Of a stretch of 46,500 nucleotides of DNA, positions 98-42,898 are shown in pieces. The notes under the pieces are model-generated. The model was not told the DNA's origin, did no database searches, and saw only the letters and a list, made by a program, of their open reading frames with translations. The stretch is from a virus (Duplodnaviria; Heunggongvirae; Uroviricota; Caudoviricetes). Each line of letters begins with the position of its first letter. Position 1 is the stretch's first letter. Position numbers and translations under genes: made by a program. Location of the stretch: the IMG/VR virus record IMGVR_UViG_2718218452_000013; one strand, 5' to 3'.

Positions 98-673
98 CTA
101 CGGTAGGGCTGGCCATTCAATATCCGGTGCAGTTGATGTATCAACACGGTTCAGCAACACCCGATACTTTTTCCAGGCTTCCAGCAACAAGGTTTCTTCC
201 TCCGTTGCGATCTCCAGATCCACAGCATCCTGAAGCGGCGCAATATGCTCACTGGCTACCTGCATCAGGCTGTTTTTTGTTTCTTCCGCCTCCCGGATCC
301 GGAACAGTTTTTCTGCTTCCGTATCCTTCACCCAGGCTGTGCCGTTCCACTTCTGATATTCCCCTCCCGGCGATAACCAGGTAACATTTTCCGGTAACGG
401 ACCGAGTTCAGAAATAAATAACGCGTCGCCGGAAGCCACGTCATAAACCGTTTTACCCCGATGATCTTCAACGAGATGCCACGATGCCTCATCACTGTTG
501 AAAACAGCCACGAAGCCTGCCGGAATATCTGGCGGTGCAATATCGATACTGTTTGCTGGCAGACCTGTATGAGGCGGAATATATGCGTCACCTTCACCAA
601 TAAATTCATTAGTTCCTGCCAGCAGATTATAAATTTTTATGGTCCGTGGTTGTTCACTCATTCTGAATGCCAT
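98..673 (-). CDS. tfa: tail fiber assembly protein Tfa
   Basis: 191-aa ORF beginning [18 protein letters not shown], recalled as lambda Tfa; start overlaps the stf stop codon. Confidence 0.85.
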
Positions 674-40537: not shown

Positions 40538-41230
40538 ATGAACATAGGAAACCGAGTCAGACAACTTCGCCAAGCGAAGAACATGAAAATCGCCGATCTC
40601 GCTGAAGCGATAGGAGTAGATGCGGCGAACATCTCGCGCTTAGAAACGGGTAAGCAAAAACAATTTACCGAACAAACACTGAGTAATATTGCCAAGAGCT
40701 TAGGTGTTGATATTGCTGATCTCTTTACCTCTGCCCACAAAAGTAATACTGTATATAAAAACAGTAATAATGAGGATGTTGCGCAGGTGAAGGATGTGTT
40801 CCGTATTGAAATGCTGGATATCAGTGCCAGTGCGGGAAATGGCCTTATCCAGGGCGGTGATGTCATTGATGTGATTCATGCCATCGAATACAGAACTGAT
40901 AATGCTGTATCAATGTTCGGCGGACGACCAGCCAATCACATCAAAGTTATCAACGTTCGTGGGGACAGTATGTGTCCAACCATTGAGCCAGGAGATCTCA
41001 TCTTCGTTGATGTCAGCATCAATCAGTTTGATGGTGATGGTATATATGTCTTTGGTTTTGATGACAAAATATACGTTAAAAGACTTCAAATGATTCCTGA
41101 CAAACTGCTGGTGATTTCTGATAACCAGATTTACCGTGAATGGGGAATTACTAGCGAAAACGAACACCGATTCATGGTCTTTGGAAAGGTCTTAATCAGT
41201 CAGTCGCAAACCCTTAAGAGACATAATTAA
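40538..41230 (+). CDS. cI: CI-like prophage repressor (HTH-XRE + S24 LexA-like peptidase domain)
   Basis: 230-aa ORF MNIGNRVRQLRQAKNMKIADLAEAIGVDAANISRLETGKQ...; C-terminal peptidase-like region (VRGDSMCPTIEPGDLIFVD). Confidence 0.85.
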   Translation: MNIGNRVRQLRQAKNMKIADLAEAIGVDAANISRLETGKQKQFTEQTLSNIAKSLGVDIADLFTSAHKSNTVYKNSNNEDVAQVKDVFRIEMLDISASAGNGLIQGGDVIDVIHAIEYRTDNAVSMFGGRPANHIKVINVRGDSMCPTIEPGDLIFVDVSINQFDGDGIYVFGFDDKIYVKRLQMIPDKLLVISDNQIYREWGITSENEHRFMVFGKVLISQSQTLKRHN

Positions 41231-41250
41231 CCTCAATATCCCATCCATCG

Positions 41251-41272
41251 GCCACCGAAAGGTGGCTTTTTA
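41251..41272 (+). terminator. rho-independent terminator after the cI-like gene
   Basis: gccacc-gaaa-ggtggc followed by ttttta. Confidence 0.7.
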
Positions 41273-41280
41273 TTACCTAT

Positions 41281-41340
41281 AAATTTGCATATCACGCAAA
41301 TATCACTTGCATATCTCGCAATTTAATTTTATCTTTTGTT
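41281..41340 (+). promoter_or_regulatory. OL/pL-like operator-promoter region
   Basis: operator half-sites matching OR (atatcacgcaaat, atatctcgcaatt) overlapping a candidate -35 TTGCAT / -10 TATCTT promoter. Confidence 0.5.
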
Positions 41341-41486
41341 CCAGACCAACTACAGGATTACAACAAAATCTGGTTGCAACACGGTGCATGTGTCGTAAGC
41401 AGTCAGTAAATGTCAAAAACGAACAGGCAGGACGCCCACGAAGTAGCCGCCTGGGGCATATGAAGTCCAGGATGATTCGTTAGCAA

Positions 41487-41511
41487 CAAAAAAGCGCCCT
41501 ACAGGACGCTT
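41487..41511 (-). terminator. candidate rho-independent terminator of the 41550..42041 gene
   Basis: minus-strand hairpin (one mismatch) followed by a U-run, about 40 nt after the stop. Confidence 0.4.
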
Positions 41512-41549
41512 AGCTCTTTAACAATCTGGATATCCACAACAGTAGTAAT

Positions 41550-42041
41550 CTACAGATTGCCGTTAAGTTTTCTGGACAACTCCTCAATGGATGGAGGCGA
41601 TACGTAATCCGGATTTTTATTCATCAGAAACTTATTTTCACAGTGGAGGCACCTGCTTTTATGAAAAAGCTCATCTTCGCTAACCGGGAATGGTTGAAGT
41701 ATCGATACTATCTTTTGTCCAAAACATTTTGGGCAAAGATGCATGGTTATGCTGCCACCGTTCACGATTACCTCCTTCGAGTATACAAAAGTACCCGACT
41801 CAAGTTGGTTAAGGATATAGCCTTCCGTCTGAGCCTCAAAGTTTTCGAATTCTGCAATTTTAGCTTTGAGAGAAGCATTTATTTCTTGATAAGAGCCCAC
41901 CAGTTCAACGAGAGACACGCATTCGCGCTGAATAGACGCAAGCTTTGAGTTCAGCTCACCAATAGCCGCATTTACTTCAGCTTGAGTTTTTGCCTCGTTC
42001 ATTAGTTTTGCAATCTGGGCTGTTTCACGAATAGCCGTCAT
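41550..42041 (-). CDS. hypothetical protein: N-terminal coiled-coil, C-terminal CxxC...CxxC zinc-ribbon
   Basis: ATG at 42041 (MTAIRETAQIAKLMNEAKTQAEVNAAIGELNSKLASIQRECVSL...HLCPKCFGQK...CLHCENKF), 164 aa; the upstream part of the 259-aa track ORF is Arg-rich low complexity and probably untranslated. Confidence 0.55.
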   Translation of the reverse strand: MTAIRETAQIAKLMNEAKTQAEVNAAIGELNSKLASIQRECVSLVELVGSYQEINASLKAKIAEFENFEAQTEGYILNQLESGTFVYSKEVIVNGGSITMHLCPKCFGQKIVSILQPFPVSEDELFHKSRCLHCENKFLMNKNPDYVSPPSIEELSRKLNGNL

Positions 42042-42352
42042 TGCTGCCGTTAATTCAGCGATCACATTGAATACTCTTATTGTTGTTGGGGATATCCAGA
42101 TTAACCGAATCCTTGTTGTTGGGGAATAACCAGGTCCACCTCGCCTGATGTGGCTAAAAGCAGGCACATAACAGCTAAGTATTTTCAACCAGAGAGAATC
42201 CTTAGCGTTGTGGTGAATGCGGCTCAGCGCACGCGGGTTAAGGTTGAGGCTGACAGTCGACCTTCTGTGGATACCCACCCGCCTGGTGTGCAACCTTCGC
42301 CAGGCACCGGGAGGCACCCGGCACCACAACTTTATGCTGTGTGTAGTCCTGG

Positions 42353-42398
42353 CGGTACCAGTTTGTACCCTTGCTTCCGGCTGGTACCGTCCTTTTTT
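42353..42398 (+). terminator. rho-independent terminator (tL1-like) on the + strand
   Basis: cggtaccag ... ctggtaccg stem followed by tcctttttt. Confidence 0.55.
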
Positions 42399-42535
42399 GC
42401 AAAACAGAGAAGAGCATCACCGGACGACGGGCTCATAACCCAATCCATCCGGGCGGCTGCCACCGCAGGTGTTCTTCTCTGTTTTGTGGAGAAACCAACC
42501 GACCTTGCAGGGTCGATATGATGAGGAGCAGCAAA

Positions 42536-42898
42536 ATGGCTAGCGAACGCAGTACTGATGTGCAGGCATTTATCGGGGAGCTGGACGGCGGCGTATTTGA
42601 AACCAAAATCGGCGCAGTTCTCAGTGAGGTCGCTTCCGGTGTGATGAACACGAAAACCAAAGGGAAGGTCTCACTCAATCTGGAAATCGAACCGTTTGAT
42701 GAGAACCGTGTGAAAATCAAACACAAACTCTCATATGTTCGCCCAACTAACCGCGGGAAAATTTCCGAAGAAGACACCACCGAAACGCCGATGTATGTCA
42801 ATCGCGGTGGTCGCCTGACTATTCTGCAGGAAGACCAGGGACAATTACTGACTCTTGCCGGTGAACCTGACGGAAAACTCCGCGCAGCAGGTCGTTAA
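42536..42898 (+). CDS. phage protein, CPS-53 YfdP-like
   Basis: ATG at 42536 preceded by GAGGAG RBS (MASERSTDVQAFIGELDGGVFETKIG...), 120 aa. Confidence 0.6.
   Translation: MASERSTDVQAFIGELDGGVFETKIGAVLSEVASGVMNTKTKGKVSLNLEIEPFDENRVKIKHKLSYVRPTNRGKISEEDTTETPMYVNRGGRLTILQEDQGQLLTLAGEPDGKLRAAGR

What the first reader, a model, noticed from the sequence alone, without database searches (positions are those of the whole stretch)
41340..42530. Orphan antisense gene (coiled-coil + zinc-ribbon protein) and a 0.5-kb structured non-coding region between pL and the early-left genes
The 1.3 kb between the OL/pL-like region and the yfdP-like gene has no convincing + strand ORF (no N-like antiterminator gene). 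It contains a - strand gene (41550..42041, 164 aa, coiled-coil N-terminus, CPKC...CLHC C-terminus) with its own putative terminator, antisense to any pL transcript. Upstream of it lies about 490 bp of apparently non-coding DNA with two direct repeats of ttgttgttgggga (about 42071 and about 42112) and a strong + strand terminator (42353..42398). This position, next to the immunity region, is a classic site for exclusion, abortive-infection or defence morons (rexAB in lambda). The protein has no obvious family I can assign.
Basis: inference. Interest (0 to 1): 0.6.

Follow-up and report, generated by a model that had tools for sequence, protein, structure and literature searches.

The report
Rip1-like phage defence gene beside a structured RNA
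The lone backwards-facing gene next to this E. coli prophage's repressor is a distant relative of Rip1, a recently described single-protein anti-phage pore, and the non-coding DNA beside it holds a conserved pseudoknotted RNA related to the prophage small RNA STnc100, so both parts are real but belong to known kinds.

Summary
The - strand gene most likely runs 41550-42065 (171 aa, GTG start). It has its own terminator and a long N-terminal helix followed by a four-cysteine zinc-ribbon domain.

It is not an orphan. It belongs to phrog_1244. A profile of its homologues matches the solved Rip1 protein of phage HK446 (PDB 9oox, E 5.7e-17; Foldseek probability 1.0). It also matches the Pseudomonas Mu-like phage proteins that sit where Rip1 is reported to lie. 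Rip1 is a pore-forming defence triggered by ring-shaped phage proteins.

In every context read, the gene is a single gene antisense to a phage operon. Here it fills a variable slot (41482-42135). In related prophages that slot holds unrelated antisense genes behind the same upstream module.

The "non-coding 0.5 kb" has three parts:
- the cargo gene's upstream module;
- a 120-nt five-helix pseudoknotted RNA on the + strand (42209-42328) with strong covariation. It is a divergent relative of Rfam STnc100 (40.3 bits, cut-off 47) and is followed by an intrinsic terminator;
- a very stable conserved hairpin before yfdP.

An exact rrn-type boxA lies on the pL strand inside the cassette. The RNA's function is unresolved.

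The parts
41285..41335 (+). OL-type operators (TTGCATATCACGCAA at 41285-41299, TTGCATATCTCGCAA at 41307-41321) and putative pL (-35 TTGCAT 41307-41312, 17-nt spacer, -10 TATCTT 41330-41335). The transcription start would be near 41342.
   Evidence: Direct repeat D3. The promoter was read by eye. It scores 7/12, below the scanner's threshold, so it is an inference.
41415..41481 (+). Conserved pL-leader block 1. It is shared with SfV, SfII, PhiR49_1 and ST64B and is the left edge of the variable slot.
   Evidence: One hairpin shows a compensatory change between the window (CCUGG/CCAGG) and ST64B (CCGGU/ACCGG). The fold is not unusually stable.
41492..41511 (-). Intrinsic terminator of the Rip1-like gene. 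Read on the + strand, the same hairpin precedes boxA.
   Evidence: 8 pairs, 5 G-C, tail TTTTTTGTTGCT. It is conserved in the Citrobacter, Cronobacter and Symbiopectobacterium cassettes.
41513..41524 (+). Exact rrn-type boxA (GCUCUUUAACAA) in the pL transcript, directly after the hairpin.
   Evidence: The first eleven bases (GCTCTTTAACA) also occur in both HK620 matches: one lies inside the annotated nutL and the other begins at the first base of the annotated nutR. The motif lies upstream of the type-2 RNA on the sense strand in 12 of 83 contexts, and in 0 of 83 on the other strand or downstream.
41523..41548 (.). Left arm of a 26-nt inverted repeat flanking the gene (85% complementary to 42077-42102).
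   Evidence: I1. The core AATCTGGATATCC is kept at both ends of the gene in L006, L009 and L014.
41550..42065 (-). Rip1-family gene. It encodes 171 aa (GTG start): a long N-terminal helix followed by a C-terminal four-cysteine zinc-ribbon domain.
42066..42173 (-). Upstream module of the cargo gene. It holds the SD AAGAG, the right inverted-repeat arm (42077-42102), two CCCCAACAACAA repeats (42080-42092 and 42113-42125 on the + strand) and a conserved stretch up to about 42173. The promoter is not identified.
   Evidence: The same module precedes unrelated antisense genes in other prophages. No consensus promoter was found.
42209..42328 (+). Type-2 STnc100-like structured RNA. P1 42210-15/42322-27; P2 42218-21/42228-31; P3 42233-38/42277-82; P4 42283-88/42298-42303; P5 42307-11/42317-21. 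The pseudoknot pairs 42240-46 with the P4 loop 42291-97.
   Evidence: Rfam STnc100 gives 40.3 bits against a cut-off of 47. My own model R1 gives 143 bits. Covariation is shown.
42336..42348 (+). Conserved, probably single-stranded stretch GCUGUGUGUAGUC between the structured domain and the terminator. It is a candidate seed if the RNA acts in trans.
   Evidence: Read from the sequences (window, phiES15; ST64B with one change). This is an inference.
42350..42398 (+). Intrinsic terminator (stem-loop 42350-42391, U tract 42392-42398).
   Evidence: It is 93-97% identical in Stx2 phages that carry a different RNA upstream. Among family members, 77-80% have a terminator about 28 nt after the core.
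42397..42489 (+). Very stable long hairpin in the leader, with a closing stem of about 22 bp and two inner hairpins.
   Evidence: -61 kcal/mol, z = -5.3, 0 of 200 shuffles fold as well. It is conserved in ST64B and in a Citrobacter prophage where the next gene is xis, with 3 pairs changed on both sides.
42500..42535 (+). Small hairpin (42500-42515) and the GAGGAG Shine-Dalgarno before yfdP (ATG 42536).
   Evidence: yfdP = phrog_204.

Best explanation
There are two independent modules side by side in the untranslated leader of the early-left (pL) operon of a DLP12-site lambdoid prophage.

(1) 41482-42135 is a swappable cassette. Its cargo is a Rip1-family gene (41550-42065, - strand) with its own upstream module and terminator. 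By homology, the protein is a single-protein abortive-infection defence. It sits harmlessly in the lysogen. It recognises a ring-shaped oligomer made late by a superinfecting phage (small terminase or portal) through its C-terminal zinc-ribbon domain. It assembles a ring around that oligomer, and its N-terminal helices form a membrane pore that kills the cell before progeny mature.

The antisense placement is inferred to let lytic pL transcription silence the gene when the prophage itself is induced. The cassette carries a hairpin plus an exact boxA on the pL strand. This is inferred to load NusB/NusE so that pL transcription survives Rho across about 1.2 kb of untranslated RNA.

(2) 42209-42398 encodes a five-helix pseudoknotted RNA of the STnc100/PasD family followed by an intrinsic terminator. 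The most likely reading is that it is made from pL and released at that terminator as a stable small RNA.

What is shown: the homology, the fold, the covariation, the positions and the slot variability. What is inferred: defence activity, the trigger, self-silencing, boxA function and the RNA's role.
For: Gene.
- It matches phrog_1244 at E 2e-58.
- The family profile matches PDB 9oox Rip1 at E 5.7e-17 over residues 6-151. The single sequence gives 2.7e-7. Foldseek against 9oox_L and 9oox_M gives probability 1.0, E 6.5e-7.
- HK446 gp37 is that PDB chain.
- It is 29% identical (E 9e-20) to JBD30 gp30, which lies antisense between the genes annotated 'DNA binding protein' (gp29) and terminase large subunit. 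That is the position where the review places Pseudomonas Rip1, between the small and large terminase genes.
- The four Cys, a VY motif and an IL pair in the SILQ stretch are invariant across the window protein, HK446, HK620 and JBD30.
- The mechanism is taken from the review PMC13434031, section 5, citing Patel et al. 2026, Nature 651:1060.
- In every context read it is a lone antisense gene: Citrobacter, Cronobacter, Arsenophonus, Symbiopectobacterium, HK446, HK620 and JBD30.

Slot.
- Conservation breaks at 41481 and 42136.
- At least six unrelated antisense ORF families lie directly upstream of the type-2 RNA in other phages. Some sit behind the same upstream module.

boxA.

RNA.
- Across 54 distinct sequences, 96.1% of cells pair. 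13 of 26 pairs show changes on both sides. Controls with the partner slid by 1-3 columns pair at 46% or less.
- For the pseudoknot, the longest complementary run is 6.96 nt within a sequence against 4.36 nt between sequences, with about six distinct complementary pairings of 6 nt or more and several shorter ones.
- Rfam STnc100 gives E 2e-5 over the whole window.
- Type-1 relatives score 68-177 bits.
- Most members are followed by a terminator.
- PasD is reported as an sRNA with RIL-seq targets, and STnc100 as a structurally related prophage sRNA (bioRxiv 10.64898/2026.05.13.724894).
Against: - No experiment exists on this subfamily. It is only 24-29% identical to tested Rip1 proteins.
- N-terminal amphipathicity is only weakly above shuffles (mean muH 0.275 against 0.20 +/- 0.04).
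- No consensus promoter was found for the gene, so expression in the lysogen is assumed.
- PADLOC and NCBIfam give nothing. The PADLOC copy dates from 2023, before Rip1 was described.
- The RNA fails the Rfam gathering score and has no promoter of its own. A 110-nt pseudoknotted domain is unusual for an Hfq-dependent sRNA. The single-sequence fold is not exceptional (z = -1.6).
- boxA is absent from the SfV, SfII and ST64B leaders. A lone 13-mer match with up to 2 mismatches is expected by chance in a window this size.
Confidence: 0.7

Rival explanations
1. The pseudoknotted RNA (42209-42328) is a cis-acting, factor-independent antiterminator in the manner of HK022 put. Once transcribed, it stays with RNA polymerase and lets the pL transcript read through the terminator at 42350-42398 and later ones. 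It would replace the missing N protein. Any small RNA seen is only the terminated by-product.
For: - No N-like ORF lies between pL and yfdP. A strong terminator stands between pL and all early-left genes, including xis and int.
- The RNA always lies on the sense strand just upstream of a terminator.
- In 16 of 61 type-1 variants a TTGACx-17/18-TAAATT promoter ends exactly 7 nt before helix P1, against 2.3% in shuffles. The RNA there starts at the 5' end of the transcript, like putL (PMC9378689).
- Loops and junctions are nearly invariant while helices covary. That pattern suits binding to a conserved host machine.
Against: - There is no sequence similarity to HK022 putL/putR or to the annotated HK639 putL-like RNA.
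- The window holds only one copy and none in the pR operon.
- In L038 and L027 the RNA is tandemly repeated, and most family members are followed by a terminator of their own. That suits sRNA genes better.
- In many late operons it sits next to a Q antiterminator, which already does that job.
- A Citrobacter relative has lost both the RNA and the terminator but keeps the rest of the leader.
Confidence: 0.17
2. The 171-aa protein is not a defence. It is a prophage regulator or housekeeping factor, for example a modulator of induction, replication or packaging that binds the phage's own terminase or portal ring.
For: - The same fold binds small terminase rings.
- The gene sits next to the immunity region or next to terminase genes.
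- No defence assay exists for this subfamily.
Against: - The characterised homologues protect against other phages, and escape mutants map to portal or small terminase (review).
- The gene is dispensable to the phage backbone. SfV, SfII, SfIV and ST64B lack it and carry other genes in its place.
- It moves between unrelated backbones as a single antisense gene.
Confidence: 0.08
3. The + strand ORF 42150-42521 (123 aa), which RefSeq marks as a frameshifted pseudogene, is or was a protein gene, for example a decayed N-like factor. On this view the apparent RNA structure is incidental.
For: An ORF of 123 aa exists. PGAP placed a frameshifted CDS there.
Against: - Substitutions are compensatory in five helices and a pseudoknot across 54 sequences.
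- Homologues differ by 1-nt and 5-nt indels inside the region.
- The same RNA occurs in unrelated contexts, such as the P1 ban operon and upstream of kil in phiES15, with no common reading frame.
Confidence: 0.03

Closest known systems
Rip1 (ring interacting pore 1): HK446 gp37, PDB 9oox; Pseudomonas Mu-like prophage Rip1 (Patel et al. 2026, Nature 651:1060)
   Same: - Size is about 165-171 aa.
- Architecture is a long N-terminal helix followed by a C-terminal beta-rich domain with CxxC...CxxC.
- Sequence and fold homology are significant.
- It is a single gene carried by a prophage and antisense to the surrounding operon. HK446 rip1 lies in the pL operon, as here.
   Different: - Identity to the characterised proteins is only 24-29%. 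This is a separate subfamily (phrog_1244) found mostly in Enterobacterales.
- It carries its own conserved flanks, not seen at HK446 or HK620: an inverted repeat, CCCCAACAACAA repeats, and a hairpin plus boxA on the opposite strand.
- Trigger and activity are untested.
STnc100 (Rfam RF02076) and PasD prophage small RNAs
   Same: - The 22-nt core CACCGGGAGGCACCCGGCACCA, the GGUGAAU start, the closing helix P1, the hairpins P4 and P5, and the pseudoknot between the P4 loop and the segment after P2 are shared.
- A terminator usually follows at about 28 nt.
- Both are prophage-borne and lie on the sense strand of a phage operon.
   Different: - It scores 40.3 bits, below the cut-off of 47.
- P2 and P3 are built differently: UGCG/CGCA plus GCGGGU/ACCCGC instead of CCCC/GGGG.
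- It lies in the early-left (pL) leader, or the ban operon in P1, and not after Q/pR', stxB or before the esterase and holin genes.
- It has no promoter of its own.
HK022 / HK639 put antiterminator RNAs
   Same: It is a structured RNA on the sense strand close to an early promoter, upstream of terminators, in a lambdoid phage without N. Type-1 copies start at the transcript's 5' end, like putL.
   Different: There is no sequence similarity. It has five helices and a pseudoknot over about 120 nt rather than two stem-loops over about 70 nt. There is one copy per phage rather than putL plus putR.
Other single-gene or two-gene morons by the immunity region or in the early-left operon (lambda rexAB, P22/Rac sieB)
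   Same: It occupies the same place: beside the repressor or in the early-left operon of a lambdoid prophage, with its own signals. In a Rac-like Cronobacter prophage the homologue sits between kilR and the repressor. From my own knowledge, not checked here, sieB lies at that place in Rac.
   Different: There is no homology to Rex or SieB, and no transmembrane segment. The proposed sensing (ring oligomers) and effector (self-assembled pore) differ.
rrn / lambda nut boxA (NusB-NusE loading site)
   Same: It is an exact 12-mer GCUCUUUAACAA, preceded by a hairpin as in rrn leaders. The first eleven bases also occur in both HK620 boxA-like matches, one inside the annotated nutL and one starting at the first base of the annotated nutR.
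   Different: No N gene and no boxB-like N-binding hairpin follow it. It travels with the antisense cassette rather than with the phage backbone. Function is untested.

Membership tests
Rip1 (ring interacting pore 1) | Detectable sequence homology to an experimentally characterised Rip1 | tested here: met
   The family profile against 9oox_L gives E 5.7e-17 over residues 6-151. The single sequence gives E 2.7e-7. BLASTP against JBD30 gp30 gives E 9e-20. HK446 gp37 is the 9oox chain.
Rip1 (ring interacting pore 1) | Same fold: a long N-terminal helix plus a C-terminal ring-contacting domain | tested here: met
   The AF2 model has pLDDT 88, with helices 2-79 followed by strands. Foldseek gives probability 1.0 and TM 0.53-0.72 normalised to the target. 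The next hits have E of 0.09 or worse.
Rip1 (ring interacting pore 1) | Conserved CxxC...CxxC and core motifs shared by characterised members | tested here: met
   C111, C114, C139, C142, V94-Y95 and I122-L123 are invariant across the window protein, HK446, HK620 HkaP, JBD30 gp30 and three closer homologues.
Rip1 (ring interacting pore 1) | Amphipathic N-terminal helix able to form the pore | tested here: inconclusive
   Mean hydrophobic moment over residues 1-80 is 0.275, against 0.20 +/- 0.04 in shuffles (4% of shuffles are as high). The maximum is not exceptional. There is no transmembrane-like stretch.
Rip1 (ring interacting pore 1) | Prophage-borne single gene that combines sensor and effector | tested here: met
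   It is a lone antisense gene inside phage operons in all contexts read.
Rip1 (ring interacting pore 1) | Protects against phages; is activated by oligomeric small terminase or portal; forms a dodecameric ring and pore | not testable with these tools
   This needs plaque assays, escaper mapping, pull-downs, liposome leakage or cryo-EM.
STnc100 (Rfam RF02076) | Score at or above the curated gathering threshold (47 bits) | tested here: not met
   The score is 40.3 bits, with E 6.4e-7 in 1.5 kb and 2e-5 in the whole window. The type-2 relatives in ST64B, phiES15, P1, L032, L100 and L080 also fall below it. Type-1 copies score 68-177 bits.
STnc100 (Rfam RF02076) | Shared core sequence and helices (closing helix, P4, P5) | tested here: met
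   The 22-nt core and GGUGAAU are identical. P1, P4 and P5 covary. The P4-loop pseudoknot is present in both types.
STnc100 (Rfam RF02076) | Discrete Hfq-associated small transcript | not testable with these tools
   Only literature on relatives is available. No transcript data exist for this locus.
put-type antiterminator RNA | Sequence or structure similarity to HK022 putL/putR or to the HK639 putL-like RNA | tested here: not met
   The core finds no match with up to 3 mismatches in the HK022 immunity region. No shared Rfam hit was found. The HK639 putL-like sequence, read directly, is unrelated. blastn-short finds only 8-10-nt chance matches, though that query was the upstream leader 41340-41530 and not the RNA itself.
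put-type antiterminator RNA | Promotes terminator read-through in cis; blocked by RNA polymerase beta-prime zinc-binding-domain mutations | not testable with these tools
   This needs reporter fusions or in vitro transcription.
N/nut antitermination | An N gene plus boxA-boxB nut sites | tested here: not met
   No N-like ORF lies between pL and yfdP. boxA is present, but it is preceded, not followed, by a hairpin, and there is no N.

The most novel reading that the evidence does not exclude
The type-2 STnc100-like RNA is a new class of cis-acting RNA that modifies RNA polymerase or Nus factors. It would be functionally like put but structurally unrelated. It would let N-less lambdoid phages read through the terminator that gates their early-left operon. 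The wider STnc100/PasD 'sRNA' family, found right after pR'-like promoters, would be the same device in late operons. The element would also mark the edge of a hotspot where antisense defence genes are swapped in behind a shared expression module that brings its own boxA.
Probability: 0.15. Interest if true: 0.8.

Novelty: new member of a known kind. Interest (0 to 1): 0.42.

Why it matters
Rip1 was described only in 2026. Here a distant subfamily is carried by many E. coli prophages: most of the 5-kb region is present in 410 of 5,426 complete genomes. These include O103 and other STEC lineages. It sits in the slot beside the repressor. This gives a concrete candidate for phage resistance in such strains and for testing how far ring sensing extends.

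The slot is a compact, well-delimited exchange site. It has fixed flanks, a shared upstream module and at least six unrelated antisense cargo families of unknown function. That makes it a short list of candidate new defence genes.

The neighbouring RNA is a strongly covarying pseudoknotted fold present in hundreds of phage contigs. So far it has been treated only as an sRNA. Its position, before the terminator that gates an N-less early operon and at the 5' end of some late transcripts, makes the sRNA-versus-antiterminator question directly testable.

Tried and rejected
- Pfam, PADLOC and NCBIfam scans of the 171-aa protein gave only weak coiled-coil noise or nothing. The PADLOC copy dates from 2023, before Rip1 was described.
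- I considered a DksA/TraR-like reading (coiled coil plus C4 zinc finger). I dropped it because no Pfam hit appeared and Rip1 explains the fold.
- put similarity was tested against HK022 and HK639 and was negative.
- I considered a tRNA-like reading of the RNA (P1 as acceptor, P5 as T arm). I dropped it because the loop sizes do not fit. I did not run a tRNA scan of the window.
- The weak DicF hit over the terminator (15.7 bits, E 2.8) is noise.
- The MAFFT alignment of type-2 RNAs (A2) misaligned four of eight sequences and was not used. I used an Infernal alignment instead.
- My first comparison of the long hairpin took the Citrobacter locus on the wrong strand. I repeated it correctly.
- I suspected the 164-aa membrane protein in the same slot of L025 to be SieB, but no library supports that.
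- Block 1 (41415-41481) was folded and is not unusually stable. I left it uninterpreted.
- The primary Rip1 paper is not in the held library, so the mechanism is cited from a review.
Full report
**Setting.** The window is a lambdoid prophage of the SfV/SfII/DLP12-site kind. The 5 kb around the finding is 99.9% identical to a prophage next to tRNA-Arg and intD in E. coli O103:H2 12009. On the + strand lie a cI-type repressor (40538-41230; Peptidase_S24 plus HTH) and its terminator (41250-41267). Two 15-nt operator repeats follow (41285-41299 and 41307-41321). Then, after 1.2 kb, come yfdP (42536-42898), yfdQ (DUF2303), yfdR, xis-like genes and int. cro and a CII-like gene run the other way. The + strand is therefore the "leftward" early direction. 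I place pL at TTGCAT(41307)-17 nt-TATCTT(41335) by eye. It is below the scanner's threshold, so this is an inference.

**The observation.**
- The - strand ORF ends at 41550. From ATG 42041 it encodes 163 aa.
- The eight codons upstream (MIAELTAA) are conserved in homologues from Escherichia, Salmonella, Citrobacter, Cronobacter, Arsenophonus and Symbiopectobacterium that are only 50-60% identical overall. RefSeq annotates the 171-aa form. I therefore take GTG 42065 as the start, with AAGAG eight bases upstream.
- The gene's terminator is at 41511-41492.
- The 13-mer TTGTTGTTGGGGA is exact at 42080-42092 and 42113-42125.
- The + strand terminator is an 11-13-bp stem over 42350-42391 with a U tract to 42398.
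- No + strand ORF in 41340-42535 looks real. The one RefSeq marks as a frameshifted pseudogene lies over an RNA (see below).

**What the gene is.**
- Pfam, PADLOC and NCBIfam are silent. PHROGs gives phrog_1244, of unknown function, at E 2e-58.
- A search of public proteins found 56 relatives, all unnamed. Aligned, they show four invariant cysteines.
- The AlphaFold model built on that alignment is confident (pLDDT 88). It has a helix from residue 2 to 79, broken once, followed by a beta-rich domain.
- The alignment profile hits one solved structure: "ring interacting pore 1 (Rip1)", PDB 9oox, E 5.7e-17 over residues 6-151. The single sequence gives 2.7e-7.
- Foldseek finds the same entry, "HK446 Rip1 in complex with the T6 small terminase", with probability 1.0. 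Nothing else scores better than E 0.09.
- HK446 gp37 is that chain.
- tblastn links the window protein at 27-30% identity to HK446 gp37, to HK620/HK630 HkaP, and to a protein of the Pseudomonas Mu-like phages JBD30, DMS3, D3112 and MP38 (BLASTP to JBD30 gp30, E 9e-20).
- Across all of these, the four cysteines, a VY motif and an IL pair in the SILQ stretch are invariant.

**What Rip1 does.** I could not read the primary paper (Patel et al. 2026, Nature 651:1060). A 2026 review summarises it (PMC13434031, section 5). Rip1 is a prophage-encoded single protein that is harmless alone. Escape mutants map to portal (Pseudomonas phages) or small terminase (E. coli phages). Twelve Rip1 monomers ring an eleven-mer of small terminase. 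The C-terminal half contacts the ring, and the N-terminal amphipathic helices make a pore. The infected cell is lysed prematurely.

**Membership.** I file the window gene as a Rip1-family member on homology, fold and motifs. Activity and trigger are untested. Amphipathicity of its N-terminus is only weakly supported.

**Placement of the gene.** In every context I read, the gene is a single gene pointing against a phage operon:
- between xis and the repressor in a Citrobacter prophage;
- between kilR and the repressor in a Rac-like Cronobacter prophage;
- inside the early-left operon in Symbiopectobacterium;
- between the lysis and terminase genes in Arsenophonus;
- just after N in HK446, and near N in HK620;
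- between gp29, annotated "DNA binding protein", and the large terminase gene in JBD30. The review puts Pseudomonas Rip1 between the small and large terminase genes.

I infer, without data, that this constant antisense placement lets lytic transcription of the host operon shut the gene down when the prophage itself is induced and starts making its own rings.

**The slot.** Comparison with SfV, SfII, PhiR49_1, ST64B, phiES15 and an Stx2a phage shows conservation up to 41481 and again from 42136, with the stretch between replaced. SfV has a + strand orf33 there and SfII a different small gene.

In 122 distinct contexts of the neighbouring RNA, the ORF immediately upstream on the opposite strand falls into at least six unrelated families. 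These are proteins of 105, 144, 81, 106 and 77 aa, plus the Rip1-like protein. Only the 144-aa one has a name: the ECs1072 family, of unknown function.

Several of these cargoes sit behind the same upstream module as the window gene, with the two CCCCAACAACAA repeats and TTAATCTGG. This is a defined exchange site for antisense genes.

**Features that travel with the cassette.**
1. A 26-nt inverted repeat brackets the gene (41523-41548 and 42077-42102). Its core AATCTGGATATCC is kept at both ends of the gene in three other genera. I cannot tell whether it acts as RNA (5'UTR-3'UTR pairing, or an RNase III site) or as DNA.
2. Read on the + strand, the gene's terminator hairpin is followed at once by GCUCUUUAACAA (41513-41524). 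This is the rrn boxA consensus. Its first eleven bases also occur in the two HK620 matches, one inside the annotated nutL and one starting at the first base of the annotated nutR.

One such match in a window is not significant alone. However, hairpin plus boxA occurs on the sense strand upstream of the RNA in 12 of 83 contexts, and never on the other strand or downstream. It is absent from leaders that carry a translated + strand gene instead. I infer that it recruits NusB/NusE and protects the long untranslated pL leader from Rho.

**The RNA.**
- Rfam gives one sub-threshold hit, STnc100 (RF02076), at 42177-42400: 40.3 bits against a cut-off of 47, E 6.4e-7 locally and 2e-5 for the whole window.
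- Scanning viral contigs for the shared 22-nt core, and separately for the 5' end of the window's version, returned more than 200 loci.
- They fall into two types. Type 1 is STnc100 proper, scoring 68-177 bits. Type 2 is the window's kind. It also occurs in ST64B, phiES15 and the P1 ban operon, and it fails the Rfam cut-off.

A covariance model built from four type-2 sequences found exactly one copy in the window (42209-42328, 143 bits) and aligned 54 distinct sequences. On that alignment 96.1% of cells pair and 13 of 26 pairs show changes on both sides. The covariation score is 0.333, against 0.052 or less when the partners are slid. The alignment is fitted to the model, so this leans towards the structure.

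Independently of any alignment, the P4 loop pairs with the segment just after P3's 5' strand. The pairings include AAGGUUG/CAACCUU (here), AAGGCUG/CAGCCUU, UGGUUAU/AUAACCA, CAGUUAA/UUAACUG and AGACUGACAAA/UUUGUCAGUCU. The longest complementary run averages 6.96 nt within a sequence and 4.36 nt between sequences. The same holds across type 1. P5 switches between CCGGG/CCCGG and CCUGG/CCAGG, and P1 between GUGGUG/CACCAC and GCGGUG/CACCGC. This is a real, compact, pseudoknotted RNA, not a protein-coding stretch.

**Where the RNA family lives.**
- Type 1 lies in late operons: after Q and a pR'-like promoter, after stxB, or before the nanS-type esterase or holin genes.
- In 16 of 61 type-1 variants a TTGACx-17/18-TAAATT promoter ends 7 nt before P1, against 2.3% of shuffles.
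- Some contigs carry two or three tandem copies.
- Type 2 lies in early-left leaders, without a promoter of its own, upstream of yfdP, kil or DUF1482 genes.
- About 80% of both types are followed, some 28 nt later, by an intrinsic terminator.

The literature treats STnc100 and PasD as prophage sRNAs. PasD has RIL-seq targets, and the two are reported to be structurally related. STnc100 was also detected in vesicles of STEC.

**How the RNA most likely works.** My preferred reading is that the window's RNA is transcribed from pL and released at 42398 as a stable small RNA. The conserved stretch GCUGUGUGUAGUC (42336-42348) would be a candidate pairing region.

The rival is that the folded domain is a put-like antiterminator for an operon that has a terminator but no N. 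Its position fits, and so does the 5'-end placement of type 1. Against it: there is no similarity to put. There is only one copy in the phage. Tandem copies exist, and most copies carry a terminator of their own. I give this rival about 0.17.

**The rest of the leader.** 42397-42489 folds into a very stable hairpin (-61 kcal/mol, z = -5.3). It is conserved in ST64B, and also in the Citrobacter prophage, where the RNA domain and terminator are gone and the next gene is xis. Its role is unknown. A small hairpin and a GAGGAG Shine-Dalgarno precede yfdP.

**Verdict.** The gene is a new, untested member of the recently defined Rip1 defence family. The RNA is a divergent variant of a known prophage RNA family whose function remains open.

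The slot architecture is the part I have not seen described. It comprises fixed flanks, a shared upstream module, interchangeable antisense cargo and a cassette-borne boxA. It rests on sequence comparison only.

Noticed in passing
window 42066-42173 (- strand); L112, L116, L122, L129, L130, L182, L230, L025: The same upstream module precedes unrelated antisense genes in the same slot of other prophages. The module has two CCCCAACAACAA repeats, TTAATCTGG and a conserved stretch GTGCCTGCTTTTAGCCACATCAGGCGAGGTGGA. The other genes are an ECs1072-family 144-aa protein and a 164-aa membrane protein. It looks like a shared expression platform for swappable cargo.
   Followed up: partly
window 41523-41548 and 42077-42102: A 26-nt inverted repeat brackets the Rip1-like gene. 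Its core AATCTGGATATCC is conserved at both ends of the gene in the Citrobacter, Cronobacter and Symbiopectobacterium cassettes, although the proteins are only 52-61% identical to the window protein. It could be a 5'UTR-3'UTR duplex, an operator pair or cassette ends.
   Followed up: partly
window 41486-41524 (+): A hairpin is followed by an exact rrn-type boxA (GCUCUUUAACAA) on the pL strand. The hairpin doubles as the terminator of the antisense gene. The arrangement is strand-specific across related loci: 12 of 83 against 0 of 83.
   Followed up: yes
window 42397-42489 (+): An exceptionally stable long hairpin (z = -5.3) lies between the terminator and yfdP. It is conserved even where the downstream gene is xis and the RNA domain is absent. 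Its function is unknown.
   Followed up: partly
window 132-330 (-): A full-length match to Rfam IS009 (RF02111) scores 224 bits, well above the cut-off of 117.
   Followed up: no
L038 342-1038; L027 1121-1794: There are three (L038) and two (L027) tandem copies of STnc100. In L038 a tRNA gene follows them. tRNA genes also lie next to the element in L024, L143 and the P1 ban operon.
   Followed up: no
L022 (Stx2a_1447) about 2370-2570: At the same place in the pL leader this Stx2a phage has a different RNA. It keeps the first 12 nt (GUGGUGAAUGCG), an ACCAC closing strand and the same terminator, but lacks the 22-nt core. It may be a third variant of the family.
   Followed up: no
window about 42210-42521 (= NC_013353 575946-576257): RefSeq/PGAP annotates a 'frameshifted hypothetical protein' pseudogene over the structured RNA and the long hairpin. 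This is probably a mis-call of non-coding RNA.
   Followed up: partly
L021 (phage P1, AF234172 about 70080-70200): The P1 ban operon carries a type-2 copy of the RNA between upl and tciA. It shows compensatory changes in P1 (GCGGUG/CACCGC) and a different pseudoknot pairing. It is not annotated in the record, which does annotate a dicF-like region nearby.
   Followed up: partly
window 41415-41481 (+): This pL-leader block is conserved in SfV, SfII and ST64B, with one compensatory hairpin change (CCUGG/CCAGG against CCGGU/ACCGG). It has no match to known elements, and its fold is not unusually stable.
   Followed up: partly
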